Below are positions 3,341 to 39,923 of a stretch of DNA of 64,000 nt, piece by piece. A program made the position numbers and the translations under genes. Source of the DNA: Candidatus Staskawiczbacteria bacterium (GTDB lineage: Bacteria > Patescibacteriota > Minisyncoccia > Minisyncoccales > Staskawiczbacteraceae); assembly GCA_026395215.1 (NCBI GenBank), contig JAPLZC010000010.1, positions 140,150-204,149 of the forward strand, read 5' to 3'. Within the stretch, counting starts at the first letter, position 1. Each line of letters opens with the position of its first letter. The notes under the pieces were generated by a model. It was given only the letters and a program-made list of their open reading frames with translations, made no database searches and was not told where the DNA came from.

Positions 3341-3531
3341 AATAATTAGTCTCTAAATTTAACAAAAAATACAACAAAAGTAAAGTACTTTTTTGGTACG
3401 AAAATATTTAGTAATTATATCACACTATTTGTTAGTTGCGAACTGCCCACATGCCGCGTTTATACAGCCTTTTATAAATTTTTTGTTTGAAGGGTGCGCG
3501 CTACTTTTGATGACTTTTGTAACACAAAGAT

Positions 3532-4602
3532 TTACTTACTTGTTACGAACTGGCCACAAGCCGCGTTTATATCATCACCAAACCTGTATCTTTGGGTATA
3601 TCTTATCTTTAATTCTTCTAGTATATCTCTAAACTTTTTTACCCGTTCGGTTGTAGACGGTTCAAACGCCTGCCCCGCCAGGGCGGGGTCCCGCTGTGGC
3701 GGGATGGCATTATACAAAATCAAGTTAACAAAATATAATTTTTTGTTCATTATTTTTGCTAATTCTCTGGCATGTTCTTCTGAGTCATTTACATCTTTAA
3801 TCAAAACATATTCAAACATTACTTTCCTTTTTGTTTTTTCAATATATTGGTCAACTGCTTTTAAAACTTCGGCTAATGGATATTTTTTGTTTATTGGCAT
3901 TAACTCCCCTCTTAATTTATTATTTGGAGCGTGTAGAGAAATTGCTAGGTTAATATGTAAAGGGTCGTCACTTAACTTCTTTATGCCTTCAATAATTCCG
4001 GCAGTTGAAACAGAAATAGACCTTACTCCTATATTAAAATATTTGTAATCGTTCAAAATTCTTATAGAGTCTAACACATTGTCATAATTTAAAAATGGCT
4101 CCCCCATGCCCATATAGGTGACGTTGGTCACGCTTATTGCAAACCCTTCGACTTCGCTCAGGGTGATTTTTTTCAGATACCTACTGAAAAAAATCACTTG
4201 CTCTAGGATTTCTTCGGAGGTTAAATTTCTTTTAAAACCCATTTTGCCGGTGGCACAGAACAGGCATCCTAATGGACATCCTACCTGTGAAGAAACACAC
4301 ACAGTATTTCTGCCACTTGTCTCTGGCCTAAGCGGGTCTTTGTGTCGCATTAAAACCGTTTCTATCATCATCCCATCTTCCAAGGTTATTCTAGCCTTCA
4401 CGCTGTCTTCCTTTTTTGAGACCAAAACATCTGCCTTTATTTCCAGCGGACATTCTTTATTTAACTTTTCCCGCAATTCCACGGAGAAAAAAGTCGCCTC
4501 TGACCAATCAGAAATAAAATTTTTGTACACCGCTTCCCTAGCCTGATTAAGACGATATTTCGGCTCCCCTTCCAAAACTTTTTCCAAATTACTTAAATCC
4601 AT
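3532..4602 (-). CDS. rlmN: 23S rRNA (adenine2503-C2)-methyltransferase RlmN (radical SAM)
   Basis: CPLGCLFCATG radical-SAM cysteine motif. MGMGEPFLNYD. C-terminal GDDINAACGQF motif conserved in RlmN/Cfr. Confidence 0.85.
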   Translation of the reverse strand: MDLSNLEKVLEGEPKYRLNQAREAVYKNFISDWSEATFFSVELREKLNKECPLEIKADVLVSKKEDSVKARITLEDGMMIETVLMRHKDPLRPETSGRNTVCVSSQVGCPLGCLFCATGKMGFKRNLTSEEILEQVIFFSRYLKKITLSEVEGFAISVTNVTYMGMGEPFLNYDNVLDSIRILNDYKYFNIGVRSISVSTAGIIEGIKKLSDDPLHINLAISLHAPNNKLRGELMPINKKYPLAEVLKAVDQYIEKTKRKVMFEYVLIKDVNDSEEHARELAKIMNKKLYFVNLILYNAIPPQRDPALAGQAFEPSTTERVKKFRDILEELKIRYTQRYRFGDDINAACGQFVTSK

Positions 4603-4639: not shown

Positions 4640-6811
4640 TTATGGCACCGTAGTATCAACAGTTATTGTATAAGGTGCCAAAGTAAGAGTTGCATCATTC
4701 CCTAATTCATCAACAATATGGACAACAATTTTATAAATTCCGTCTTGAGCGTAGTTGCCATTACTCATCTTCCCGTCCCATAATTTTGATGTTACAGTAG
4801 CATAACTTGTTGTCTGAGTAAAATACTTTATATAATGCGAACCATCACATGTCGCAACCGAATTTAAACAAATATAAATACGACTGAACTTTACTGGTAC
4901 GCTCACATTTATAATAATTCCCACCGATGAAGGTATGGAAGGGTTAAAAGACACATTTTGTGCAGATCCATTAAAAGTATAACTAGTGACGCTTGGTGGT
5001 GCTTCATTCACGGTAATTGTGTAAATAGACTCTGTTATTCCGTCTTGAGCCGTGACTGCAAGAGTATCATTAGATACTATCGGGTTGCCAAGAGTACTAC
5101 TTGTATTATTTTCAAGAGCGCCCACGGCAAACGTTAAATTACTTAAAAAAATAGCTTTTGCTGTTCCAAAAGAAACATTTGTGATAGTCCCAGCCCCACC
5201 CGCAAGAGAACTTACTGTATAAACTGTGGATGTTACTGTGGCATCATTACTTGCGATTGGCACGGCGACAACATGAACTAATCTTGTCACTTCAACAGCG
5301 CTATTTCCTGCAACATCAGAAACATTGTAAGTAATTGTATAATCTCCTACTGCATTAGCATCAACTGGGTTAACAATAATTATTTTTGTGGTAAGGTCTC
5401 CATCAACATTATCTAAAACTGTTGCACCCGCATCAATATAAACATCGCCAACGGTGATTGTAATTTCAGGGTCGCCCGTTAGAGTAATTACTGGCGCAGT
5501 TGTATCTGGAGGTACAAAAGCAGTATTTTGTGCTTTTGGTGTTGGTGTGTCTATCTCAAAATCTGCTGAATTATCGTCCGTATCTTGCTCTGAATTGTCT
5601 GGCAAAACTTTCCTGCCAATACTTTCACCTTCTGGCGGACATTCTCCTAGGCCAGGACAGATTGCTTTAAAATTTTCTAGGGAGCAAGCATCTTTACCAA
5701 TACCAACTTCATCAATAATATCGGGGTCATTATAATCTACAATGTCATCAGTGTTTTTAACTAAATAAATTGTATTATTGCCTGTCAGCAACCAACCTAT
5801 TGTCATGCCTGTTGGCGATGCTGCCAACGTTTTCAGAGAATCATCTGCATTTGTACTAACAACTAAATAAAAACCCTTTGGCGGAATAACGGCATCGACA
5901 TTAAAATGTTTGGAATAAAAACTCGTATTTACAGAACATCCGCCTACCCCCCAACCGCTTTTTTGAATTGACCACCCTTTTAAAGAGAAACTAGAATCAT
6001 TTGGATTATAAAGCTCAACCCAATCGTCATTTACATTAGTTTGTCCTGCAATTTGAATTTCGCTTATCAAAGGATTTTGCAACACTGGCGCGGGAGCTCC
6101 TCCTCCGCCTCCTCCGCCACCGCCACCTGCGGGCGGCGAGGTAAGACCGGGCTCAACATAGGCGCAACCTTGAGCAATTATTCCCTGCAAAGTTGCAGGT
6201 CCTATCCCGCTGACGCGCAATAAATCATTCAGCGAATAAAATGGTCTGGCAGATATAATTTTTTGAGCTGTTGTTGGCCCAACTTGAGTTATTTTATCTA
6301 AATCTTCTGCGGAGGCTGTATTTATATTTATTTGCCCGGTGCAAACAGTTATCTGGTTATTTTCATTGTTATCATTATTTTGGTCATTACTCTGGTCTTG
6401 GTCACTTTTATCTTGATCATTCTGGTCGTCTGCAACTTTATCTTTGTCTACGTCGGCAACCTGATTATCGAGATTTTGCTGGGCAATTAATTCATTTACT
6501 TTCTGTTGTATTATATCCAATTTTTCCTGAATGTCGTCCAATTGGTCTTGCCTGCTTATAATAATTGGCGCAACCGTATCTTCGGTAGATTCTTGCAAAT
6601 CAATTGCCGGAATTATGTCTGTAATTTCAGGAATTGCTGAAAGCGAGGCCGGAAAAAATTTGGCTAAAATATTAATATTTGAATTGGAAAAAATATTCCA
6701 TACAAAAAATCCTACCACAATAATGACGGTTAAACCTGAAAAAAAATAAAAAAATCGGCTCTTTTTGGGCATAAGTTGCAACAGTTCTTTTAATTTTACA
6801 CTTTTTTGCAC
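4640..6811 (-). CDS. Large membrane-anchored surface protein with ComEA-like helix-hairpin-helix DNA-binding domain, lamin-tail domain (LTD) and Ig-like domains
   Basis: N-terminal TM helix, then a coiled coil and an acidic low-complexity stretch (DQNDQDKSDQDQSNDQNND). ININTASAEDLDKITQVGPTTAQKIISARPFYSLNDLLRVSGIGPATLQGI matches the ComEA C-terminal HhH domain. A poly-Gly linker follows. LISEIQIAGQTNVNDDWVELYNPNDSSFSLKGWSIQKSG is LTD-like. The C-terminal part has bacterial Ig-like repeats (DTTAPVITLTGDPEITITVGDVYIDAGATVLDNVDGDLT). Confidence 0.7.
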   Translation of the reverse strand: MQKSVKLKELLQLMPKKSRFFYFFSGLTVIIVVGFFVWNIFSNSNINILAKFFPASLSAIPEITDIIPAIDLQESTEDTVAPIIISRQDQLDDIQEKLDIIQQKVNELIAQQNLDNQVADVDKDKVADDQNDQDKSDQDQSNDQNNDNNENNQITVCTGQININTASAEDLDKITQVGPTTAQKIISARPFYSLNDLLRVSGIGPATLQGIIAQGCAYVEPGLTSPPAGGGGGGGGGGAPAPVLQNPLISEIQIAGQTNVNDDWVELYNPNDSSFSLKGWSIQKSGWGVGGCSVNTSFYSKHFNVDAVIPPKGFYLVVSTNADDSLKTLAASPTGMTIGWLLTGNNTIYLVKNTDDIVDYNDPDIIDEVGIGKDACSLENFKAICPGLGECPPEGESIGRKVLPDNSEQDTDDNSADFEIDTPTPKAQNTAFVPPDTTAPVITLTGDPEITITVGDVYIDAGATVLDNVDGDLTTKIIIVNPVDANAVGDYTITYNVSDVAGNSAVEVTRLVHVVAVPIASNDATVTSTVYTVSSLAGGAGTITNVSFGTAKAIFLSNLTFAVGALENNTSSTLGNPIVSNDTLAVTAQDGITESIYTITVNEAPPSVTSYTFNGSAQNVSFNPSIPSSVGIIINVSVPVKFSRIYICLNSVATCDGSHYIKYFTQTTSYATVTSKLWDGKMSNGNYAQDGIYKIVVHIVDELGNDATLTLAPYTITVDTTVP

Positions 6812-6854
6812 AATAAAAAAAGCCCCGGGGTGTTACCGCGGGTTTATACTAAAT

Positions 6855-7061
6855 TTATCTTGAAGGACTGCCATTTTTGCGATCCTTATAATCCACAATG
6901 CTGGTTAAAATCCAAGAAACACCAAAAAAAGATGCACAAAAGAAAAATATTGACCATTCCTTATAATTTTTAGAAAAAGCAAAAAGCAAACCCACAATTA
7001 TTGCCGCCAATGTAGCAATAATTAAACATAAAATATATTTTATCTTTTTCCCAGTTTTCAT
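6855..7061 (-). CDS. Small membrane protein (hypothetical)
   Basis: 68 aa with two predicted TM helices. A palindrome plus T-run terminator on the minus strand follows at 6815-6850. Confidence 0.4.
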   Translation of the reverse strand: MKTGKKIKYILCLIIATLAAIIVGLLFAFSKNYKEWSIFFFCASFFGVSWILTSIVDYKDRKNGSPSR

Positions 7062-7161
7062 TTCCGTCCTCCTTATTTATCAAAGAGCAGTCATTTGCTC
7101 CTTTAATTTAACAATAATCTTAATTACAACTTTGTCAAATAAAAAAAGCCGGGTGATAAAA

Positions 7162-7710
7162 TTACCTCGGCATGACTAATGGTTTAACTTTAGGACTGTC
7201 TGTTATGGCCGGACGTTCATTCAGACCTTCCCTCAAAAGATATTTATCTCCTATTTTTAAAAGAGTGCCTCTCCTAAAAAGGTTTAAAATTACAGCATGG
7301 ACAGAAACCCTTGAAAACTGGCGGCCTATTGCTTTATTTACTTCTTGAAAAATGTGTCGTCCCTCTAAAGATACTCCTTTTGCCCTTGCTCTAAACAAAA
7401 TTGTCCAAACTGCATTTGCAACCGTACCGCTGGACTCATTGGGTGGTGGCAATAATCTTAAAGCGCTATATGTGTAACCACATCCTTCGCAGTTTCCGTG
7501 TGTACCTAGACGACGCAGAAATCCTTTTTTAGTGCGTCTCAATAAAAAACTTGCTACAACGGCACACGAAACCCCGGTGCTTGTTCTAATATCAGCTAAG
7601 GTAAATTGCTTCCTACGAATACGACAGGCATTTACAAAATCTGTAATGCGTTTGTATTGGTCAGTAGGTATCCGTAACCGACCAGGAATTGCTCCTCTGG
7701 GCATAAACAC
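7162..7710 (-). CDS. Hypothetical basic protein with winged-helix-like segments (GC-rich islet)
   Basis: 182 aa, Arg-rich, with HTH-like stretches (FTLADIRTSTGVSCAVVASFLLRRTKKG and HAVILNLFRRGTLLKIGDKYLL). GC is clearly above the local background. It has its own downstream hairpin/T-run terminator. Confidence 0.35.
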   Translation of the reverse strand: MFMPRGAIPGRLRIPTDQYKRITDFVNACRIRRKQFTLADIRTSTGVSCAVVASFLLRRTKKGFLRRLGTHGNCEGCGYTYSALRLLPPPNESSGTVANAVWTILFRARAKGVSLEGRHIFQEVNKAIGRQFSRVSVHAVILNLFRRGTLLKIGDKYLLREGLNERPAITDSPKVKPLVMPR

Positions 7711-9668: not shown

Positions 9669-12386
9669 TTACTTTTTTGCTTTTGTTAATTTTGGTCTTT
9701 CGGTAAATCTGGGCATAAGCTTTGGCGTGTCAAAAGTCATTTTGCCTTCGCCAGTTGGCGAATTGTCTGCATCAATCAAAATTCGTGAACCTTCGGCAAT
9801 TTCATTGGTGACAATTTTTATAGACAACGGGTCTAAAATTAGACGCTGGATAACTCTTTTCAACGGTCTGGCTCCCAAATTGGCATCAAAACCTTCTTTA
9901 ACTAAAAGCTCTTTGGCTTTATCTGAAATACCAATTTTTATCTCCTTTGTAGCCAAACGTTTCTCAACTTTGGCCAATTCCAAATCAACAATTGTTTTAA
10001 TCTGCTCTTTTTGTAAATAATTAAAAATAACAACTTCATCAATTCTGTTCAAAAATTCCGGCCTGAATGAATCCTTTAAGGTGTCCATTATTTTTTCCTT
10101 CATTGACTCGCGCTGTTCTAACTCTTCTTTGTTATTAAACCCAAGGGAAGACATTTTGTTTATGTAATCAGAACCCAAGTTAGATGTCATTATAATAATT
10201 GTATTTTTAAATGACACTACTCTACCTTTAGAATCTGTCAGCCTTCCATCTTCAAAAATTTGCAACAAAAGATTAAACACATCAGGATGGGCTTTCTCAA
10301 CTTCATCTAATAACAAAACAGAATACGGCCTGCGCCTGACTTTTTCTGTAAGCTGTCCGGCTTCTTCATATCCCACATATCCTGGAGGACTTCCAATCAT
10401 TTTTGAAACCGTGTGTTTCTCCATATACTCAGACATGTCCATTCTTATTAAGGCCTTTTCGTCGTCAAACAAAAACTCTGCCAAAGCGCGGGCACACTCT
10501 GTTTTTCCAACACCAGTAGGCCCCAAAAATAAGAAAGACCCTAAAGGTTTGTTCTCTTCGGAAATTCCGGCCCTAGCCCTGCGTATGGCGCGAGATATGG
10601 CAGAAATTGCCTCTTGCTGTCCTACAACTCTTCTGTTCAAAGTATCTTCCATTGTCTCTAATTTTTTAGCTTCCTCTGTTATCAAGCGCATTACAGGTAT
10701 TCCTGTCCAGCGCGAAACAACTTTGGCAACTTCTTCTTCTGTAACTTCTTCTTTAAGAAATCTGTGCTCTTTTTGAATTTTAATTAATTTTTGTTCTATC
10801 TCAGAGGACTCTTTCAACAATTCGGGAATTCTTCCATATTTAATTTCGGCCACCTTTTCTAGGTCGGCTTCCCGCTGAGCAATTTCTGTTTGGTAAGAAA
10901 GATTATCTAATTTTTCTCTAATATCTTTAATTTTATTTATAAGCTCTTTCTCTGTTCCCCATTTTAACCTAAGAGCTTTTGTTTTTTCATTCAAATCTGC
11001 CAACTCTCTGGCAATAACCTTTAATCTTTTTTCAGATCCTTTTTCTTTCTTAAGCGCCTGCTTTTCAATTTCCAACTTCATTATTGCTTCATCAAAAGTT
11101 TCCAATTCTTGAGGGTCAGATTCATTCTCCAATCTTAAAGCACTGGCCGCTTCGTCCATTAAGTCAACTGCTTTGTCTGGCAGAAATCTGTCAGAAATAT
11201 ATCTGTTTGCCAATTCTACGGCCGCTTTTATTGCAGAATCTTTTATTTTAACTCCATGGTGAACTTCATATTTTTCTTTAATACCGCGCAACATTGCAAC
11301 GGCATCATCCACAGAGGGCTCCTGTACATAAATTGGCTGAAACCTTCTTTCCAGTGCAGCATCTTTTTCAATATATTTTTGGTATTCCTTTAAAGTTGTA
11401 GCTCCAATTGCTCTTAATTCTCCTCTGGCCAATGCTGGTTTCAAAAGGTTTGAGGCATCAATTGCACCCTCAGCAGCTCCCGCGCCAACTATTGTATGAA
11501 GCTCATCTATAAATAAAATATATTTACCAGCTGACCTAGATAATTCTTTTAACAAAGCTTTAATTCTTGTCTCAAATTCTCCTCTATATTTTGTTCCTGC
11601 AATTATGGCTCCCAAATCTAAAGAAATAACTTCTTTATTTCTCAAAAAATCCGGCACATTTCCTCTGGCGATTCTTTGGGCAAAACCTTCCACAATAGCT
11701 GTTTTTCCAACTCCGGCTTCTCCAATTAACACCGGATTATTTTTTGTCCTTCTAGAAATTATTTGCATTAATCTCCTAATTTCATTATCTCTGCCAACTA
11801 TTGGGTCAATTTTTCCGGCTGAAGCCAGATTGGTTAAATTCCTGGTATATTTTTCAATTACTTGATATTTTGATTCTGGTTCGGGATCTGTAATGCGTTG
11901 CCCTCCCCTTATTTGTGACAAAACTTTCATTACCGCCTCGTAATCAAGCTTGGAACTTTTTAGATTATTTCCTTCACCCGAGGCCAAAAAATTAACTTTT
12001 TCCAAAATATCCTTGGCTCCCGATTTTGTATCCAATACAGCCAAAAACAAATGCTCAACGGAAATAAACTCGTCATTCATTTTGATTGCTTCCTGCCTTG
12101 CTCTATCTAAAGCTTTTGCCATATCTTGCGTAAGATAAAACTGCCCAAACGCCTGCGGTGTTGAAATTACTGGAATTTTAGTAATTTGTATTTCAACCTT
12201 CTTCATTAATGCTTCGGCATCAACTCCAAGTTTTTGCAAAACTGTAATTACTATACTTCCCTCTTGAGAAAGTAAAACCAACAATAAATGCAGGGCATCA
12301 ATTTGTGATTGCCCCTTCTCCTGCGCCAATTGTTGCGCCTGCATTAAAGCATCCTGCGCCTTATTAGTAAAATTAGCTCCATTCAT
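9669..12386 (-). CDS. clpB: ATP-dependent chaperone ClpB
   Basis: 905 aa with an N-terminal Clp_N repeat. Two AAA+ modules carry Walker A motifs [13 protein letters not shown] and [10 protein letters not shown] long middle coiled-coil domain is present. Confidence 0.9.
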
Positions 12387-33900: not shown

Positions 33901-34479
33901 ATGACAATAATTATTGGGTTAGGTAACCCCGGAAAAAAATTCGAGAACACTCGCCACAATGTTGGCTTTACCGCGATCGATAAAATCGCCGCGAATTTTC
34001 AATTTCCAATTTTTAATTTTCAATCAAGCTTCAATGCCGAAATTTCTCAAGGCGAAATTGCAAATAAAAAAGCCTTGCTGGTCAAACCGCAAACATTTAT
34101 GAATGATTCGGGAAAGTCTGTAAAAAAAATACTGTCGAAAAACAGAGACCAAGTTTCAGATATAATCGTCATCCATGATGATATAGACCTAGAAATCGGA
34201 AAAATAAAAATCATCAAAGAGCGAGGTAGCGCCGGCCATAAAGGAGTAGAATCAATAATCAAAGCCATCGGAAACGAAGGCTTAGTGAGATTCCGTATAG
34301 GCATTGGTGAGCGGACCCATGGACCGGTCCACGGGTCCAAGAAAGCTATGCAAATTGTCTTAAAAAAATTCACAACCGAAGAACAAAAAACAATAACCGA
34401 AACAATAATAAAAACCGCTGATGCTCTCAATTCATTTGTCACCGATGGCCTAGAAAAGACAATGAATAAATTCAATTAA
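33901..34479 (+). CDS. pth: Peptidyl-tRNA hydrolase
   Basis: N-terminal signature IIGLGNPGKKFENTRHNVGF. Confidence 0.9.
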   Translation: MTIIIGLGNPGKKFENTRHNVGFTAIDKIAANFQFPIFNFQSSFNAEISQGEIANKKALLVKPQTFMNDSGKSVKKILSKNRDQVSDIIVIHDDIDLEIGKIKIIKERGSAGHKGVESIIKAIGNEGLVRFRIGIGERTHGPVHGSKKAMQIVLKKFTTEEQKTITETIIKTADALNSFVTDGLEKTMNKFN

Positions 34480-35455
34480 AAATTTTTACAACTTCCAGCT
34501 GAATCATTTTAGTATTCCCGTGTTTCAGAAGTCCTAAATAAGAATTCAACGTTTCAATACTTGAATTCTTTTTTATTCTATCAAACATTTTGTTCTTAGT
34601 CTTGTTTCTCAGAACTCTATGGTCATAATAATTAACCCAGCCGAGAAAATCCATACCGGAATATAGTGTTTTAATAAAGACTTTGTCAGGATGCAAAATA
34701 AGTTTTAGTTTGTTTTGTAAATATAGTTTTGTTACTAAAACCATATTTTCTAAATACTTTTTACTATCTGATAAAATAACAAAATCATCTGCATAACGAA
34801 TATAGTGTTTTACTTTTAGTTTATGTTTTACAAAATGATCAAACTCGTTTAAATAGATATTAGAAAAAAGTTGAGAAGTTAAATTGCCGAGGGGTAAACC
34901 GTTCGGCTTAAAGCTGAAAGTTATTTCTTTTAATAAATTGATAATATTTTTGTCTAAAATATGTTCTCTTAAAATATCTATCAAAATATTCTGATTTATA
35001 CTGGCGAAAAACTTTTTGATATCGCATTTTAAAACCCAGCAAGTTTTAGTGTTATTTTTTGAAACGATATATGCAAATTCTCTAAATCTATTTATGGCTT
35101 TGTGTGTGCCCTTGTTATTTCTGCAGGAGAACGAGTCAGAAATAAAAGTTCTATCAAAAAATGGATATAATATACGATAGATGGCTCGATGCAAAAGCCG
35201 GTCTCTTACGCTGGCTTTATGGATTATTCTCGGCTTTGGGTCGTTAATTTTAAAACATTCATATCCGCCATGTTTGTATGTGTTATTCTTTAAATCATTA
35301 TGTAATGATAATATATTATCCATCAGGTTAAACTGAAACTCTTGAACGTCTTTTTTATTTCGTTTCCCTTTCAAAAACTCCAGCCAAGCTAAAAGCAAAT
35401 TATCAATACTAACTAAATCATCAAATTTATGACACAGAATACTTTTCATAATCAA
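34472..35455 (-). CDS. Diversity-generating retroelement (DGR) reverse transcriptase
   Basis: 327 aa. RT motifs KCDIKKFFASI (motif 2), LPLGNLTSQLFSNIYLNEFD (motif B') and IRYADDFVIL (YxDD). No maturase or endonuclease domain. Adjacent to avd and to the TR/VR pair. Confidence 0.85.
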   Translation of the reverse strand: MIMKSILCHKFDDLVSIDNLLLAWLEFLKGKRNKKDVQEFQFNLMDNILSLHNDLKNNTYKHGGYECFKINDPKPRIIHKASVRDRLLHRAIYRILYPFFDRTFISDSFSCRNNKGTHKAINRFREFAYIVSKNNTKTCWVLKCDIKKFFASINQNILIDILREHILDKNIINLLKEITFSFKPNGLPLGNLTSQLFSNIYLNEFDHFVKHKLKVKHYIRYADDFVILSDSKKYLENMVLVTKLYLQNKLKLILHPDKVFIKTLYSGMDFLGWVNYYDHRVLRNKTKNKMFDRIKKNSSIETLNSYLGLLKHGNTKMIQLEVVKIFN

Positions 35456-35836
35456 AATAATTATTCCTCTAATCCCCCAAAACTCTTACCTGTTTTAGAG
35501 AAAATTAAAAGTGCTTATCTTTTTTGGTACCAACACTATTTGATTATACCGAAAACGCATAGATATTCTTTGGGAGAAAAAATAGACAAATTTTTTGTTG
35601 AAACACTTGAAGCAATAATTACGGCGAGTTTTTTAAGTCAAAATGAAAAGTTACCTTATGTGCGTTTAGCAATCAGAAAAATAGACACTTTAAAAATATT
35701 TCTAATGCTTCTTTGGGAGACAAAATCTTTTGACAATAAAAAATATATCGCCCTCTCATTAAAATTAGACGAAATCGGGAAAAATCTTGGCGGGTGGTGC
35801 GGACAAATATTAAAACAAAACTCTCTCAAAAAGTGA
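35429..35836 (+). CDS. avd: DGR accessory variability determinant (Avd-like four-helix-bundle protein)
   Basis: 135 aa with the four-helix-bundle (TIGR02436-like) pattern (...RYSLGEKIDKFFVETLEAIITA...LSLKLDEIGKNLGGW). It is divergent from, and 27 nt overlapping with, the annotated RT start. TR lies 18 nt downstream. Confidence 0.65.
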   Translation: MTQNTFHNQNNYSSNPPKLLPVLEKIKSAYLFWYQHYLIIPKTHRYSLGEKIDKFFVETLEAIITASFLSQNEKLPYVRLAIRKIDTLKIFLMLLWETKSFDNKKYIALSLKLDEIGKNLGGWCGQILKQNSLKK

Positions 35837-35853
35837 GCGAGGAATGAAAAGAG

Positions 35854-35983
35854 TTGCGAGCAGGCAGCCAGATTGCCACCATTCCAGTCATTGCTGAGCC
35901 AGTTGTAGTTCCAGTTCCACTTGCCATCATCATCACGATAGACATACAGTACGTTACGGTTGCCGTTAGGGTTCAGAATGATT
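35854..35983 (-). repeat. DGR template repeat (TR); sense strand is the minus strand
   Basis: 130-bp near-copy of 36366-36495. All 12 mismatches are T on the plus strand, meaning A on the minus (sense) strand. The first 29 bp (ttgcgagcaggcagccagattgccaccat) are identical. Confidence 0.85.
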
Positions 35984-36232
35984 TCACAAAATACCGTCTA
36001 TACCACCACCCTTTGAATACTCTTGGGGTTGAATCGGATTCGGTATCGTAATACCCTAGTATTTTGTGCCAAGTATTTTCATTTTTTGAAGTATTTATAC
36101 ACCCTCCGTCTGAATCCTTGAACGCAGACGCTCTCAGCGTATGAACACTGGATTCGGTAGCAGGAAACCGTGATCTCCCGCATATTCGCCTAATACCGCT
36201 TATATTTTATCATAAATTAAAATATTAAAAAA

Positions 36233-36258
36233 CCGGACACCATACTATGTATGTCCGG
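36233..36258 (-). terminator. Terminator-like hairpin (ccggac...gtccgg) with minus-strand T-run downstream of the DGR target gene
   Basis: aaaaaaccggacaccatactatgtatgtccgg. The plus-strand A-run is a T-run on the minus strand. Confidence 0.4.
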
Positions 36259-36359
36259 CAAAGTTTGTGCTGTTCCAAACAGCGTTTTGTGGAAAATACC
36301 ACGATTGTTCTAAGGGCAAAGGATTTCAGGCCAAGACCTAATTTCCAAGTCCTAAGGAC

Positions 36360-37004
36360 TTATACTTGCGAGCAGGCAGCCAGATTGCCACCATCCCAGT
36401 CATTGCCGAGCCAGTCGTAGTCCCAGTGCCACTCGCCATCATCATCACGATAGACATACAGTACGCTACGGTCGCCGTCAGGGCTCAGAATGACATCGCC
36501 GAGGAAGGCGATGAAAGTTGTGCCATTCTGCTGGTACAACTTCTCCAGAACGCTTTCTGTCTTACGCGCCTGATAGTCCTGCCACAAGCCCATAAAGACC
36601 GTGGCTCCGTAGCGGATGGCTCCAGAGGCCTTCAGCCTTGCCAACTTCTCTTCCCCCTTGATTGGGGTTTCACCCTCTTTCAGGGAGGAGGTGAAGTTTG
36701 CCGAACCCAAGTCCACTTCGGTGAGGGCCACGGAAACCTTGTCCTGATCTTTTTGGACAATACTCCAGCCTTTGCCGAGGAACTTGATTGGGTCGAACGG
36801 AGCCGTGGCAAACTTGAGACCGCCGAAGATGAAATTCATACCGTTCTTAATGAACGCTGTCATCCTCCGCCCGATTTCCTCCGGTGGCAGACTGATCACA
36901 TTCGCCTGAAGTTTTTCTCCGTCGATTTGTTGCCAGTCGATCAGGGTTCCATTCCCGCACCGATTGATAACCTCGAAAGCTTGATTCTGTGTTACGACTT
37001 TCAT
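36360..37004 (-). CDS. DGR target (variable) protein with a C-terminal VR of C-type-lectin-fold type
   Basis: 214 aa, GC-rich. The C-terminal 43 aa (DGDRSVLYVYRDDDGEWHWDYDWLGNDWDGGNLAACSQV) is encoded by the VR. TR has AAY/AAG/AGC codons at the varied positions. No obvious signal peptide. Confidence 0.75.
   Translation of the reverse strand: MKVVTQNQAFEVINRCGNGTLIDWQQIDGEKLQANVISLPPEEIGRRMTAFIKNGMNFIFGGLKFATAPFDPIKFLGKGWSIVQKDQDKVSVALTEVDLGSANFTSSLKEGETPIKGEEKLARLKASGAIRYGATVFMGLWQDYQARKTESVLEKLYQQNGTTFIAFLGDVILSPDGDRSVLYVYRDDDGEWHWDYDWLGNDWDGGNLAACSQV
36366..36495 (-). repeat. DGR variable repeat (VR) with an IMH-like invariant 3' end
   Basis: Matches TR except at 12 template-adenine positions. 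The invariant GC-rich 29 bp at the 3' end (coding sense) is IMH-like. A small hairpin lies 5 nt downstream at 36347-36361 (aagtcc-taa-ggactt). Confidence 0.85.
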
Positions 37005-37216
37005 GACACTATCCTTCCTTCGTTTTGCCGACTTTTATTTCCTCACCACCCGGTGAAAAAACTCTATCGGCGTCTGTGCTATGGCGTTTTGCCACACCAG
37101 AAAATTGTTTATTTCTAAACCGCTTTCTGGCATGGCAAAAATAAGTATCTTGTGCTGTAAATGTGCTAATTCGCTATATTATTAATTATACACCTAAATA
37201 GCACCTTTGTCAATGG

Positions 37217-37257: not shown

Positions 37258-39252
37258 ATGGATAAAACTGCTAAAGAATTAACCCAACTTTTAATTGTCG
37301 GCATTACCCCCTATTTTTTAGATAAGGAGGTTTTTTGGTTTGAGGAGAATCTACAACAAGTGTTAGATGCCAGGCATACTCAAAACTTTTTTGAAGATAA
37401 TATAGTTTTTTTGGAAAAAGACCATAGTTTCCAGTTTTCACAATTTTTGAGGAAGCTTGATGAAATGGGTTATGAAAGGGTTTTTAAGGTTTCAGAACCT
37501 GGTGAATTTTCCCAACGCGGAGGAATTATTGATGTCTTCCCTATCAACTGTCTTCAAGCTGCGCGAATTGATTTTCTTGGAAATGAAGTAGATAATATTC
37601 AGTTGTTAGATGATAAAAAATTCTATCCTGCAAAACTTTCGGAAGAAGAGTTTAAAAAAACAAGGGAGGTTATAAAAAAGAAACTGAAATCGCAGAAACT
37701 GTTTTCGGAGCTAAAAGGATTGAAGGCGGGAGACTATCTTGTGCACCTTGATCATGGAATTGGAAAATTTATTGGCATAGAAAAGTTTGAGACTACTGTT
37801 GGAGAGTTTCAAGAATACTATGTTCTGCAATATGACAAAGAAGATAAGCTTTATATTCCACTTGGTTTAGAAAGAAAATTATCTAAATATGTTGGTTTCC
37901 AAGACCCAAAAGTTTCCAGACTGGGCTCATCCTTATGGCAAAAAACTAAAAGAATAATAAAAGAAGAAGTTGAGAAATTAGCCAAGGAGCTTTTGCAGTT
38001 ATATGCAAAAAAAGAGATTACAGAAAGAACACCATATATAGAAGATAAAGAATTGGAGTCACAGATTAGAGACAGTTTTCCTTTTCAAGAAACTCCCGAC
38101 CAAATCAAAACAATAGAAGACATAAAAGACGACCTTTCAAAAAACAGGCCAATGGATAGAATTGTGTGCGGAGATGTTGGCTTTGGCAAAACAGAGGTTG
38201 CTATAAGAACAGCTCTGTTAGCTTGTGCAAACAATAGGCAAACTGCATTAATTTGCCCTACTACAATTTTGGCAAATCAGCATTATAATGGGTTCAAAAG
38301 AAGATTTGATAAACTACCGGTTAGAGTTGCCATACTTTCCGGTTTGCAGACAAAACAAGAACAGAAGAAAATAATTGGCGATATAAAAGAAGGCAGGGTA
38401 GATATTGTTATAGGCACCCACCGACTTTTGTCTCGAGACATAGAATTTAAAAATCTACAGCTTTTAATTATTGATGACGAACAAAAATTTGGAGTAAAAC
38501 AAAAAGAAAAATTGCGCCAAATGAAAACCAGTTTAGATGTTTTGAGTTTGTCAGCCACTCCAATCCCCCGCACAATTTATTTGGCATTATCTTCATTAAA
38601 AAGCATAAGTTTAATGCAAACTCCCCCACAAGGAAGACAAGCAATAAAAACAGAAGTTGCCCCTTACGACACAAAATTTGTTAAAAAAATAATCCATGCT
38701 GAACTTAGTAGAAAAGGCCAAATTTACTTCTTGCATAATGTGGTGCAAACAATTGAGACAAAGGCAGCTGAAATAAAGAAACTCTACCCACGGGCAAAAA
38801 TTGGCGTAATCCACGGTAGAATGCCAGAAAAACATTTGCTAGAAATAATGGACAACTTCCAAAAAGAAAAAATAAATGTTTTAATGGCAACTACAATTAT
38901 AGAAAATGGAATCGATTTTCCCAACGTAAACACAATTATAATAGAAGACTCTACAAGATTGGGACTTTCACAAGCACACCAAATAAGAGGAAGAGTTGGC
39001 AGGTCTGGTACAAAAAGTTTTGCATACTTCCTATATAACGACAAAGATATGACCCCGCTGGCTAGAGAAAGGCTGAAAGCATTAGAAGATTCCCAGGAAC
39101 TTGGAGCCGGGTATAGAATTGCAATTAGGGATTTGGAATTGCGTGGAGCGGGAAACATTTTAGGCAAAGAACAATCCGGTGCCATAAATAAAGTAGGACT
39201 AAACCTATATTCTCAGCTTTTGGCAGAAAGTATAGAGAAGTATAAAAGTTAA
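37258..39252 (+). CDS. mfd: Transcription-repair coupling factor Mfd (short form lacking the N-terminal UvrB-homology modules)
   Basis: CarD/TRCF RNAP-interacting domain (LVHLDHGIGKFIGIEK...YYVLQY). SF2 helicase motifs GDVGFGKTEVA, DDEQKFGV (DExH) and SATPIPRT. C-terminal TRCF region present. 664 aa versus about 1150 in E. coli. Confidence 0.75.
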   Translation: MDKTAKELTQLLIVGITPYFLDKEVFWFEENLQQVLDARHTQNFFEDNIVFLEKDHSFQFSQFLRKLDEMGYERVFKVSEPGEFSQRGGIIDVFPINCLQAARIDFLGNEVDNIQLLDDKKFYPAKLSEEEFKKTREVIKKKLKSQKLFSELKGLKAGDYLVHLDHGIGKFIGIEKFETTVGEFQEYYVLQYDKEDKLYIPLGLERKLSKYVGFQDPKVSRLGSSLWQKTKRIIKEEVEKLAKELLQLYAKKEITERTPYIEDKELESQIRDSFPFQETPDQIKTIEDIKDDLSKNRPMDRIVCGDVGFGKTEVAIRTALLACANNRQTALICPTTILANQHYNGFKRRFDKLPVRVAILSGLQTKQEQKKIIGDIKEGRVDIVIGTHRLLSRDIEFKNLQLLIIDDEQKFGVKQKEKLRQMKTSLDVLSLSATPIPRTIYLALSSLKSISLMQTPPQGRQAIKTEVAPYDTKFVKKIIHAELSRKGQIYFLHNVVQTIETKAAEIKKLYPRAKIGVIHGRMPEKHLLEIMDNFQKEKINVLMATTIIENGIDFPNVNTIIIEDSTRLGLSQAHQIRGRVGRSGTKSFAYFLYNDKDMTPLARERLKALEDSQELGAGYRIAIRDLELRGAGNILGKEQSGAINKVGLNLYSQLLAESIEKYKS

Positions 39253-39353: not shown

Positions 39354-39923
39354 CTACGCATTACTTCGTTTCAAATCTTTGAAACTTGCTGGCATAAGAG
39401 TCACCGACTCAATTTCGACAATCGGCTTTTTCTCACCCCTACGCCTGATGGAAAATGGACCGCCAGTGATTGTAAAAAGTCCCAAACGCTCTTTGTAAGC
39501 AACTGTTGGCGGACCTTCAATAATTAGGTAATCATCTGGAAAAGCCGGCCCTCGAAAGTTGCTGGCGCCATAACCCTTCGAAGCCACTTTATTATCTTTG
39601 CCAAGACGAGCTAGCACCTTTGGCTCTCTGGAAATCATAATCCCAAAAAATTGGGCAGCCATGTCGTACCAAATACAACCCGGCGCCAAAAGTACGCCGT
39701 CTATGACGTGACCTCTACAGATTTCACCAATGAAAAATAGTTCCCCTATTGCTTTGTTAACAGATGTGACTGTGTCAACAAAAAATGTGACTGTGTCTAT
39801 AAGATGCCACCAACCTTCGTGAGGAAGAATTGCGTCAACCTCTTGTTTCCCCAAAACTACTTTGGGTTGATTGACGAGAAGTTGGGCTATCCATTCAATA
39901 GGTACTCTAGCAGATTCCTGCAT
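39354..39923 (-). CDS. Hot-dog-fold dehydratase-like protein (FabZ/FabA-like), GC-enriched
   Basis: 189 aa. ILPHEGWWHLIDTV and H-x-IDGVLLAPG...DMAAQ resemble FabZ motifs (ILPHRYPF..., HFPG...EAxAQ). This is a weak, by-eye assignment. Confidence 0.35.
   Translation of the reverse strand: MQESARVPIEWIAQLLVNQPKVVLGKQEVDAILPHEGWWHLIDTVTFFVDTVTSVNKAIGELFFIGEICRGHVIDGVLLAPGCIWYDMAAQFFGIMISREPKVLARLGKDNKVASKGYGASNFRGPAFPDDYLIIEGPPTVAYKERLGLFTITGGPFSIRRRGEKKPIVEIESVTLMPASFKDLKRSNA

What the first reader, a model, noticed from the sequence alone, without database searches (positions are those of the whole stretch)
34472..37004. Complete diversity-generating retroelement: RT, Avd, TR and a VR-bearing target gene
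A 327-aa reverse transcriptase (YADD motif, no maturase/endonuclease) sits beside an Avd-like four-helix-bundle ORF and a 130-bp repeat pair. One copy lies in the intergenic region 18 nt past avd (35854-35983). The other is the last 130 nt of a GC-rich gene (36366-36495). Aligned on the plus strand, all 12 mismatches are T in the intergenic copy against C/G/A in the genic copy. On the minus (coding) strand this means template A varies to N in the VR, the hallmark of DGR mutagenic retrohoming. The first 29 bp at the VR 3' end are invariant and GC-rich, as expected for an IMH.
Basis: partly seen in the sequence, partly recalled or inferred. Interest (0 to 1): 0.85.

Follow-up and report, generated by a model that had tools for sequence, protein, structure and literature searches.

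The report
Complete diversity-generating retroelement, CPR type
This is an intact diversity-generating retroelement of the layout already known to be typical of Candidate Phyla Radiation bacteria; it rewrites the tail of one small protein, and its template sits in a conserved folded RNA that no RNA catalogue lists.

Summary
The 130-bp repeat pair is real: 35854-35983 is intergenic and 36366-36495 forms the last codons of a 214-aa gene. All 12 mismatches fall on template adenines (chance about 4e-8). The reverse transcriptase (RT) matches the Bordetella phage DGR RT far better than group II intron RTs and carries LGNLTSQ and YADD. The neighbouring ORF matches Avd models in three libraries.

The window comes from a Candidatus Staskawiczbacteria genome. 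The cassette sits between the housekeeping genes pth and mfd. Its layout, target/VR - TR - avd (opposite strand) - RT, is "architecture B3", which the literature reports for 90% of CPR DGRs. The element is therefore a new member of a known kind.

Three further results:
- The TR lies inside a separate RNA of about 390 nt with its own promoter and terminator. Its 215-nt 5' leader folds into nine covarying helices, is present in more than 120 metagenome loci, and is absent from Rfam. A leader segment pairs with the sequence just after TR.
- Near-identical relatives differ only at VR positions templated by adenines, so the clade is diversifying in nature.
- Most relatives carry a poly-C tract of 7-13 nt that sets the avd reading frame. 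The window has C5 and avd is in frame.

The target family is large and unannotated.

The parts
34472..35455 (-). Reverse transcriptase gene (327 aa), DGR clade
   Evidence: RVT_1 6.8e-24. Best PDB match is Bordetella phage bRT 8ub7, 7.7e-37. PHROG 1423 2e-102. LGNLTSQ and YADD motifs.
35429..35836 (+). avd accessory gene (135 aa), on the opposite strand, between TR and RT; its first 21-27 nt overlap the RT start
   Evidence: DivGenRetAVD 8.9e-17, bAvd 2.1e-9, PHROG 3206 2.8e-13. The inverted position is conserved in relatives.
35474..35478 (+). C5 remnant of the poly-C (poly-G on the RT strand) tract that is 7-13 nt long in most relatives; here avd is in frame from ATG 35429
35812..35841 (-). 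Hairpin plus UUUUGUUUU directly after TR: candidate 3' end of the DGR RNA and candidate Avd-binding stem-loop; overlaps the avd stop codon
   Evidence: Fold. Hairpin plus U-run is conserved after the post-TR motif in about 98 loci. The stem covaries in the 7-sequence alignment.
35842..35850 (-). Post-TR strand UUUUCAUUC that pairs with the leader linker
   Evidence: 580/621 cells paired against a shuffle maximum of 577 in 5000; the window carries a compensated G>A / C>U pair.
35854..35983 (-). Template repeat (TR)
35984..36197 (-). Conserved structured 5' leader of the DGR RNA. P1 36197-36150; P2 36143-36098; single-stranded linker including 36084-36076; P3 36069-36058 paired with 35995-35984, abutting TR; P3a 36055-36042; P3b 36029-36008
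   Evidence: Alignment of 70 non-redundant leaders. RNAalifold: 54 pairs, 37 compensatory. 97.0% of cells paired against 84.4% shuffled, 0/500. Coordinates. No Rfam family.
36204..36212 (-). Extended -10 promoter element TGATAAAAT of the DGR RNA
   Evidence: TGnTAnAAT lies at -14..-6 from the leader start in 58 of 90 distinct loci. Sequence.
36227..36258 (-). Intrinsic terminator of the target gene (GC stem plus T-run)
   Evidence: Fold z -3.0. A GC hairpin plus T-run is conserved upstream of the promoter in relatives.
36347..36361 (-). Small hairpin AAGTCC-TTA-GGACTT overlapping the target stop codon, 5 nt past the VR: candidate target-site hairpin
   Evidence: Fold (weak, z -2.0). Comparable hairpins occur in some relatives only.
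36366..36495 (-). Variable repeat (VR), last 43 codons of the target
   Evidence: Hypervariable columns in the family alignment coincide with TR AAY codons.
36360..37004 (-). Target (variable protein) gene, 214 aa, unannotated family
37087..37140 (-). 54-nt hairpin or palindrome in the target 5' UTR
   Evidence: dG -17.3, z -4.6. Conserved in L001, L004 and L008.
37185..37213 (-). Consensus sigma-70-type promoter of the target gene (TTGACA-17-TATAAT)
   Evidence: 12/12 match

Best explanation
The locus is an intact chromosomal diversity-generating retroelement (DGR) of the CPR-typical B3 layout. On the minus strand the order is target gene with a C-terminal VR, terminator, promoter, 215-nt structured leader, TR, short motif plus hairpin and U-run, avd on the opposite strand, then RT.

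Proposed mechanism, with the basis for each step:
1. A dedicated promoter makes an RNA of about 390 nt that starts at the leader and ends at the hairpin and U-run after TR. This is inferred from promoter and terminator motifs that are conserved across the clade.
2. The leader folds into P1, P2 and a P3 multiloop. Its single-stranded linker (AAAUGAAAA) pairs with the 9 nt just after TR, so that P3 and TR sit in a closed loop. The fold is shown by covariation. The long-range pairing has moderate support.
3. RT and Avd bind this RNA and copy the TR into cDNA, misincorporating opposite adenines. The 12-bp P3 helix, which abuts the first TR nucleotide, marks where copying stops. This is inferred by analogy with the Bordetella phage ribonucleoprotein.
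4. The cDNA replaces the VR, recoding up to 19 codons (about 10^16 protein variants). The scaffold residues G, R, W and L stay fixed. The sequence signature shows this step; the homing chemistry is inferred.

The target is a small protein with no recognisable signal peptide. It belongs to a large unannotated family whose C-terminal domain is at best distantly C-type-lectin-like.
For: - TR/VR: 12 of 12 mismatches at template A, p about 4e-8. AAY-rich TR; only one codon can mutate to a stop.
- RT: closest to bRT, with the DGR signature.
- Avd: matched in three libraries.
- The same layout occurs in genome loci L004, L005, L007 and L010 and in nearly all of the 120 metagenome loci that extend far enough to show it.
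- 71 loci have a TR/VR pair; 94.7% of 1235 mismatches are at A.
- L065 and L161 differ at 17 sites over 630 nt, all in the VR at adenine-templated positions. L073 and L089 differ at 16 sites, 15 of them in the VR and 14 at A.
- Leader structure: 53 pairs, 97% of cells paired, 569 double-change cells against 173 +/- 16 in shuffles, 38-48% paired when partners are slid.
- Promoter and terminator around the RNA are conserved.
- TR/VR homology starts 0-3 nt after the leader in 63 of 71 loci, and in the window P3 ends at 35984.
- Linker/post-TR pairing.
- The B3 layout is documented for CPR DGRs (PMC5758913).
- A duplex between segments upstream and downstream of TR, and a stem-loop after TR, are functional in the Bordetella phage DGR (bioRxiv 10.1101/2023.10.23.563531).
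Against: - There is no population or read data for this copy, so present-day activity is not shown.
- 10 of the 12 changes are A>G, a skew that selection or few homing events could explain.
- The Avd scores are slightly below the curated cut-offs of NCBIfam (61 vs 80) and Pfam (38.2 vs 40).
- The long-range pairing has little variation to test, and one subclade keeps an A-A mismatch.
- No priming site can be assigned.
- How RT is transcribed past the terminator is unknown.
Confidence: 0.9

Rival explanations
1. The cassette is a structurally intact but currently silent or fossil DGR. The VR differences would be the frozen record of past homing events.
For: Only one VR state is visible. The 12 changes are mostly A>G. 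No second target or VR lies in the window. Orphan targets and partial leaders without TR or RT exist in relatives (L009, L019), so decay does happen in this clade.
Against: All ORFs are full length with catalytic motifs. The leader, promoter, post-TR motif and hairpin are all intact and match the clade consensus. avd is in frame. Sister elements are visibly diversifying.
Confidence: 0.15
2. The repeat is an ordinary partial gene duplication lying next to an unrelated RT (group II intron, retron or defence RT), and the mismatch pattern is coincidence.
For: The group II RT/maturase model gives the strongest NCBIfam E-value (4e-41). Retron and Drt models also give weak hits.
Against: The group II score is 141 bits against a cut-off of 300, and no maturase or endonuclease domain is present. 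bRT is the best structural relative by 18 orders of magnitude. The adenine-only pattern has p about 4e-8 and recurs in 71 related loci. No intron or retron RNA family is found.
Confidence: 0.01
3. The conserved leader is not part of the reverse-transcription machinery. It would be a regulatory 5' UTR or an independent small RNA that merely travels with the cassette.
For: No experiment links it to cDNA synthesis. It has its own promoter. Its 5' half survives alone in L009 and L019.
Against: It is directly fused to TR in 120 of 120 loci, whatever the target family. P3 ends at the first TR nucleotide. A leader segment covaries with the post-TR motif. In the Bordetella system the RNA flanking TR is essential.
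Confidence: 0.15

Closest known systems
CPR/DPANN DGRs with cassette architecture B3, TR-(avd)-RT (Wu et al. 2018, PMC5758913; Paul et al. 2017, not held in the library)
   Same: CPR host (Staskawiczbacteria). The target with a C-terminal VR lies upstream. avd is on the reverse strand between TR and RT. The target has no recognisable domain, as with the 'UVR' classes. The location is chromosomal.
   Different: Nothing in the gene layout differs. This analysis adds the 215-nt covarying leader, the defined promoter and terminator of the TR RNA, and the poly-C tract in the avd of relatives. I found none of these described in the papers I could read, but I could not read Paul et al. 2017.
Bordetella phage BPP-1 DGR (mtd-avd-TR-brt), the prototype
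   Same: Homologous RT (E 7.7e-37) with the IGxxxSQ-type motif. Avd. Adenine-specific TR-to-VR transfer. VR at the C-terminus. GC-rich unmutated 3' end. An RNA in which a segment upstream of TR pairs with a segment downstream of TR, followed by a stem-loop.
   Different: avd is inverted and lies downstream of TR. The large structured RNA domain is 5' of TR, whereas in BPP-1 it is the 3' spacer (Sp). Only 2-5 nt separate the TR end from the duplex strand, so there is no room for a Bordetella-like primer strand. The host is a CPR chromosome, not a phage. The target is unrelated to Mtd in sequence.
Rfam RT-10 RNA (the BPP-1 TR-brt spacer) and the other RT-1 to RT-19 motifs (Weinberg et al. 2017, PMC5737381)
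   Same: Structured RNAs next to bacterial RT genes. RT-10 belongs to a DGR.
   Different: No RT-n family reaches its gathering score in the window or in 18 related loci. The only trace is RT-9 at 20 bits, E 2.6, which is chance level. The position relative to TR is opposite to that of RT-10.
C-type-lectin-fold DGR variable proteins (Mtd 1yu0, TvpA 2y3c)

Membership tests
Diversity-generating retroelement | RT of the DGR clade: [I/L/V]GxxxSQ in motif 4, YxDD, no maturase or endonuclease domain | tested here: met
   LGNLTSQ aligned to bRT IGSLTSQ; YADD; best PDB relative bRT at 7.7e-37 against 2e-19 for group II RTs. Only RVT_1 is found in Pfam. No phylogenetic tree was built.
Diversity-generating retroelement | TR/VR repeat pair whose differences are confined to template adenines | tested here: met
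   12 of 12 mismatches at A, p 4.3e-8.
Diversity-generating retroelement | VR inside a protein-coding target, with TR adenines in codon positions 1-2 (AAY codons) | tested here: met
   The VR is the last 43 codons of ORF 36360-37004. The TR has 7 AAC and 3 AAT codons, and only one codon can mutate to a stop.
Diversity-generating retroelement | Accessory protein Avd adjacent to RT | tested here: met
   Three libraries agree. The NCBIfam and Pfam scores are slightly below their curated cut-offs. Fold not tested.
Diversity-generating retroelement | IMH at the VR 3' end distinct from IMH* in TR, and a hairpin downstream of VR | tested here: inconclusive
   The 29-bp unmutated, 59% G+C end is identical in TR and VR, and the sequences diverge only after ...CGCAA. 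A weak 6-bp hairpin lies 5 nt past the VR and is not conserved in all relatives.
Diversity-generating retroelement | Ongoing adenine-templated VR variation in a population | not testable with these tools
   No reads or second copy of this element are available. The feature is met in relatives: L065/L161 and L073/L089.
DGR cassette architecture B3 (Wu et al. 2018) | Core order TR-(avd)-RT with avd on the reverse strand | tested here: met
   Coordinates. The same order holds in relatives. Definition.
C-type-lectin-fold variable protein | Target domain adopts the CLec fold with the VR on the ligand-binding face | tested here: inconclusive
Rfam RT-10 / other RT-n RNA motifs | Match to the covariance model at its gathering score | tested here: not met
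Group II intron RT / retron RT | Score above the family cut-off; maturase X domain or an msr/msd RNA | tested here: not met
   TIGR04416 141 bits against 300; retron model 62.6 against 235. No intron or retron RNA is found in Rfam.

The most novel reading that the evidence does not exclude
The DGR RNA of this CPR clade may be a rearranged version of the Bordetella paradigm. Its protein-binding and stop elements would sit in a 215-nt covarying leader 5' of TR. That leader is clamped to a 9-nt motif 3' of TR and bounded by its own promoter and terminator. The RNA family is found in more than 120 metagenome loci and is not in Rfam. In most relatives, though not in this window, a hypermutable poly-C tract of 7-13 nt between the avd start codon and the Avd body appears to switch Avd, and so mutagenesis, on and off. 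That would be a phase-variable switch controlling a targeted hypermutator.
Probability: 0.4. Interest if true: 0.7.

Novelty: new member of a known kind. Interest (0 to 1): 0.45.

Why it matters
As a DGR this locus is ordinary. CPR genomes are known to be rich in DGRs of exactly this layout.

Its value is as an entry point to a large, coherent clade of more than 120 loci, in which the non-coding machinery can be read from covariation:
- a defined transcription unit;
- a nine-helix leader that ends at the first TR nucleotide;
- a pairing that brackets the template.

This turns an open question into a testable one: how do B3-type DGRs, which have avd where Bordetella has its spacer RNA, prime and stop reverse transcription?

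The poly-C tract in the avd of relatives suggests that DGR activity itself is stochastically gated. The target belongs to a family of about 1,600 sequence clusters with no annotation. It is therefore a sizeable class of diversified proteins of unknown function in organisms thought to live attached to other cells.

Tried and rejected
- Second VR or target paralog in the window: none found.
- Known RNA families: no Rfam match at gathering or permissive thresholds. The RT-9 hit at E 2.6 was dismissed as chance.
- IMG/VR viral contigs scanned with the linker pattern: 22 hits, none of which contains the leader by nhmmer. The clade is therefore not evidently phage-borne.
- Target function: no hit in Pfam, NCBIfam, PHROGs, PDB sequences (single sequence and profile), Foldseek PDB or BFVD. 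Ten longer family members have no Pfam domain over the shared module.
- The AFDB50 fold library was unavailable.
- Paul et al. 2017 (PMC5436926), the supplements of Wu et al. 2018 and a 2026 preprint on non-coding elements could not be read. Prior description of the leader therefore cannot be excluded.
- RNAalifold on 7 sequences proposed a leader-TR helix (UCCAGU with ACUGGA). I dropped it because the TR partner is protein-constrained and absent from other TR families.
- A candidate RT promoter inside antisense avd could not be separated from Avd coding constraint.
- Adenine depletion does not explain the GC-rich target scaffold, because the coding strand is not A-poor.
Full report
**1. Observation**

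Positions 35854-35983 and 36366-36495 align without gaps at an offset of 512 nt, and 118 of 130 positions are identical. All 12 mismatches have T in the intergenic copy on the + strand. That is A on the minus strand, which is the coding strand of the gene holding the other copy. The changes are 10 A>G, 1 A>C and 1 A>T. The template strand has 36 adenines in 130 nt, so the chance that 12 random mismatches all fall on adenines is 4.3e-8. An invariant 29-mer from the repeat occurs only at these two places in the window, against 0 expected. BLAST of the TR and tblastn of the target find no third copy or paralog in the 64 kb.

In frame, the TR reads as 7 AAC, 3 AAT, 1 AAG and other codons. It has 31 mutable adenines. 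Nineteen codons can vary, giving about 10^16.5 protein variants, and only one codon can become a stop. The last 29 bp are identical in both copies, and the two sequences diverge immediately after ...CGCAA.

**2. The genes**

- RT. ORF 34472-35455 (-) is a 327-aa reverse transcriptase (RVT_1, 6.8e-24). Its closest solved relative is the Bordetella phage DGR RT (8ub7, 7.7e-37). Group II intron RTs follow at 2e-19. The alignment shows LGNLTSQ opposite bRT IGSLTSQ, a conserved PKPR (bRT R74) and YADD. The group II RT/maturase and retron models score far below their cut-offs.
- Avd. ORF 35429-35836 (+) matches Avd models in NCBIfam (8.9e-17), Pfam (2.1e-9) and PHROGs (2.8e-13). The NCBIfam and Pfam scores are slightly under the curated cut-offs. 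The gene lies on the strand opposite to RT, TR and target, between TR and RT. Its first 21-27 nt overlap the RT start.
- Target. The 214-aa product of 36360-37004 (-) has no hit in Pfam, NCBIfam, PHROGs or PDB sequences. It is identical to a hypothetical protein of a Candidatus Staskawiczbacteria MAG.
- Flanks. The neighbouring genes are hisS, signal peptidase I and pth on one side and mfd on the other. The cassette is therefore chromosomal.

**3. Relatives**

A family alignment of the target shows hypervariable columns exactly where the TR has AAY codons. The scaffold G..R.VL...R...G.W.W...WL..W is invariant.

In genome contigs, the layout target(+) - TR(+) - avd(-) - RT(+) recurs in Staskawiczbacteria, Portnoybacteria and Levyibacteriota MAGs. 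The mismatches there are adenine-biased: 21/24, 15/16, 24/26 and 15/17.

This is architecture B3 of Wu et al. [quoted passage not shown] The inverted avd, which looked unusual, is thus the known CPR norm.

**4. The RNA around the TR**

Comparing the VR-TR spacers of the relatives shows a fixed order of elements:
- a small hairpin after the stop codon;
- a GC hairpin with a T-run (the target's terminator);
- an extended -10 element;
- a strongly conserved block of about 215 nt that runs up to the TR.

After the TR comes a conserved motif (consensus CUCUCUUCAUUUCUC), a hairpin and UUUUGUUU.

A degenerate pattern taken from invariant leader positions was scanned over metagenome contigs. All 120 contain the full leader by nhmmer. 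Wherever the contig extends far enough, the leader is nearly always followed by TR, inverted avd and RT. Most of these loci have a different TR and target family. The leader therefore belongs to the RT/avd machinery, not to the target.

Structure was tested on 70 leaders with less than 93% pairwise identity, aligned by sequence only:
- RNAalifold predicts 54 pairs, 37 of them with compensatory changes.
- Counting 53 of these pairs gives 97.0% of cells paired, against 84.4% in shuffles (0 of 500 as high).
- There are 569 double-change cells, against 173 +/- 16 in shuffles.
- Only 38-48% of cells pair when the partners are slid by 1-3 columns.

In the window the helices are P1 36197-36150, P2 36143-36098 and P3 36069-36058 with 35995-35984, with the inner hairpins P3a and P3b. 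P3 ends at 35984, and the TR starts at 35983. Across the clade, TR/VR homology begins 0-3 nt after the leader in 63 of 71 loci.

The promoter element TGnTAnAAT sits at -14..-6 from the first leader nucleotide in 58 of 90 distinct loci, preceded by the terminator.

The single-stranded linker between P2 and P3 (consensus AAAUGAAGA; window 36084-36076, AAAUGAAAA) is complementary to the 9 nt that follow the TR (consensus UCUUCAUUU; window 35850-35842, UUUUCAUUC). In 69 distinct linker/post-TR combinations, 580 of 621 cells pair. Partner shuffles give a mean of 570 and a maximum of 577 in 5000 trials, and slid registers give 307-370. G-C to A-U exchanges occur at three positions, and the window itself carries one such compensated pair. 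Support is moderate, because both strands vary little and one subclade keeps an A-A mismatch.

No Rfam 15 family matches the leader in the window or in 18 relatives. The RT-10 motif of Weinberg et al., which is the Bordetella spacer, does not match (for its description).

**5. Comparison with the Bordetella mechanism**

In the Bordetella phage DGR, the RNA around the TR envelops bRT-Avd. A duplex forms between a segment upstream of TR and a spacer segment downstream of TR (the "cPRT Stop"). It sits next to the primer:template duplex and is followed by a stem-loop. An Avd-binding stem-loop lies just after the TR. That survey of other DGRs examined only 40 nt upstream and 100 nt downstream of TR (bioRxiv 10.1101/2023.10.23.563531).

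The CPR clade has the same logic: an upstream/downstream duplex bracketing the TR, followed by a stem-loop. The bulk of the structured RNA, however, is 5' of the TR. Only 2-5 nt separate the TR end from the duplex strand.

My reading is that the leader supplies the RT- and Avd-binding scaffold, and that P3 is the physical stop that defines the 5' limit of homology. The fold and the co-occurrence are shown here. The function is inferred. The priming site and the route of RT transcription past the terminator remain unknown (notebook).

**6. Activity**

For the window's own copy, only one VR state is visible. In relatives, two contigs of the same element (L065 and L161) differ at 17 positions over 630 nt. 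All 17 are in the VR, and all are templated by TR adenines. L073 and L089 differ at 16 positions over 1200 nt. Fifteen of these are in the VR and 14 are at adenines. Over 71 loci, 1170 of 1235 TR/VR mismatches are at adenines. The clade is thus diversifying in nature. The window's element has every part intact and in consensus form.

**7. The target**

A profile search finds 1623 cluster representatives at E <= 1e-3, of which 991 are at 1e-10. They share a C-terminal module of about 160 aa behind variable N-termini. Ten of the longest hits have no Pfam domain over this module.

**8. Side observations**

- Poly-G/poly-C tract. In most relatives a tract of 7-13 G (RT strand), which is poly-C in the avd sense, lies 10-36 nt upstream of the RT start. 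In the avd sense it lies between an upstream ATG and the Avd body. The commonest lengths are 10, 11 and 9.
- Tract length polymorphism. Four of 16 groups of contigs with identical flanks differ in tract length.
- Frame consequences. Of 47 loci with an identifiable Avd frame, 16 have avd in frame with an upstream start and 31 do not. Nearly all of the 31 have an ATG in another frame. L161 (10) is in frame while L065 (11) is not. L094 (11) is in frame while L060 (10) is not. L073 (10) is in frame while L089 (8) is not.
- Interpretation. This looks like slipped-strand phase variation, or programmed slippage, gating Avd. The window has only C5 (35474-35478) and avd is in frame. Homopolymer errors in assemblies are a caveat. 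A search of the held library surfaced no paper that links DGRs with homopolymer phase variation.
- GC split. The target scaffold is consistently richer in G+C than avd, RT and the host flank: 0.55 against 0.40 and 0.45 over 35 loci, and 0.52 against 0.30/0.29 in the window. This is unexplained.

**9. Verdict**

As a DGR it is a new member of a known kind (CPR-type B3). Interest is moderate. It rests on the uncatalogued leader RNA and on the possible phase switch in relatives, not on the presence of a DGR as such.

Noticed in passing
window 35474-35478 (C5); relatives L004 2597-2606, L007 1600-1609, L065/L138/L161, L090/L144, L060/L094, L073/L089: Most relatives have a poly-G tract of 7-13 nt (poly-C in the avd sense) between the avd start codon and the Avd body, 10-36 nt upstream of the RT start. 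Tract length differs between contigs of the same element in 4 of 16 groups and decides whether avd is in frame (16 in frame, 31 out of frame). This looks like a phase-variable switch on Avd. The window's tract is reduced to C5 and avd is in frame.
   Followed up: partly
window 36496-37004 versus 34472-35836; 35 related loci: The target scaffold outside the VR is about 0.52-0.55 G+C, while avd and RT are 0.29-0.40 and the host flank is 0.38-0.45. The split holds across the whole clade, whatever the target family. It is not explained by adenine depletion.
   Followed up: partly
window 37087-37140 (-), between the target promoter (37185-37213) and the start codon: A 54-nt near-perfect hairpin or palindrome lies in the target 5' UTR (dG -17.3, z -4.6). 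It is conserved, with a few compensating changes, in L001, L004 and L008. It is not followed by a U-run, so it is not an attenuator-type terminator. It could be an operator or an RNA element.
   Followed up: partly
L009 5668-5752 and 5992-6675; L019 637-745: Only the 5' half of the leader (P1-P2) is present next to target homologues, with no TR, avd or RT nearby. In L009 it follows another small gene that ends in ...VVPQVSSQA. These look like decayed or rearranged cassettes and orphan targets.
   Followed up: partly
L119 (avd/RT at 6122-7464 and 10988-12339); L067 (RT at 68-1012 and 3473-4405): Two RT (and avd) sets lie on one contig, so some genomes carry two DGRs of this clade a few kb apart.
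   Followed up: no
window 35429-35455: The divergently oriented avd and RT ORFs overlap by 21-27 nt at their 5' ends, so each promoter must lie inside the other gene. The same overlap is seen in L046, L058, L068 and L077.
   Followed up: no
window 37258-39252 (+): The mfd homologue is only 664 aa. It matches positions 289-820 of the 907-position TIGR00580 model and scores just below the cut-off (779 against 800), so it appears to lack both ends of a canonical Mfd.
   Followed up: no
window 39354-39923 (-): A 189-aa ORF in a locally G+C-richer stretch (0.43-0.46) has no NCBIfam match. It is not a paralog of the DGR target.
   Followed up: no
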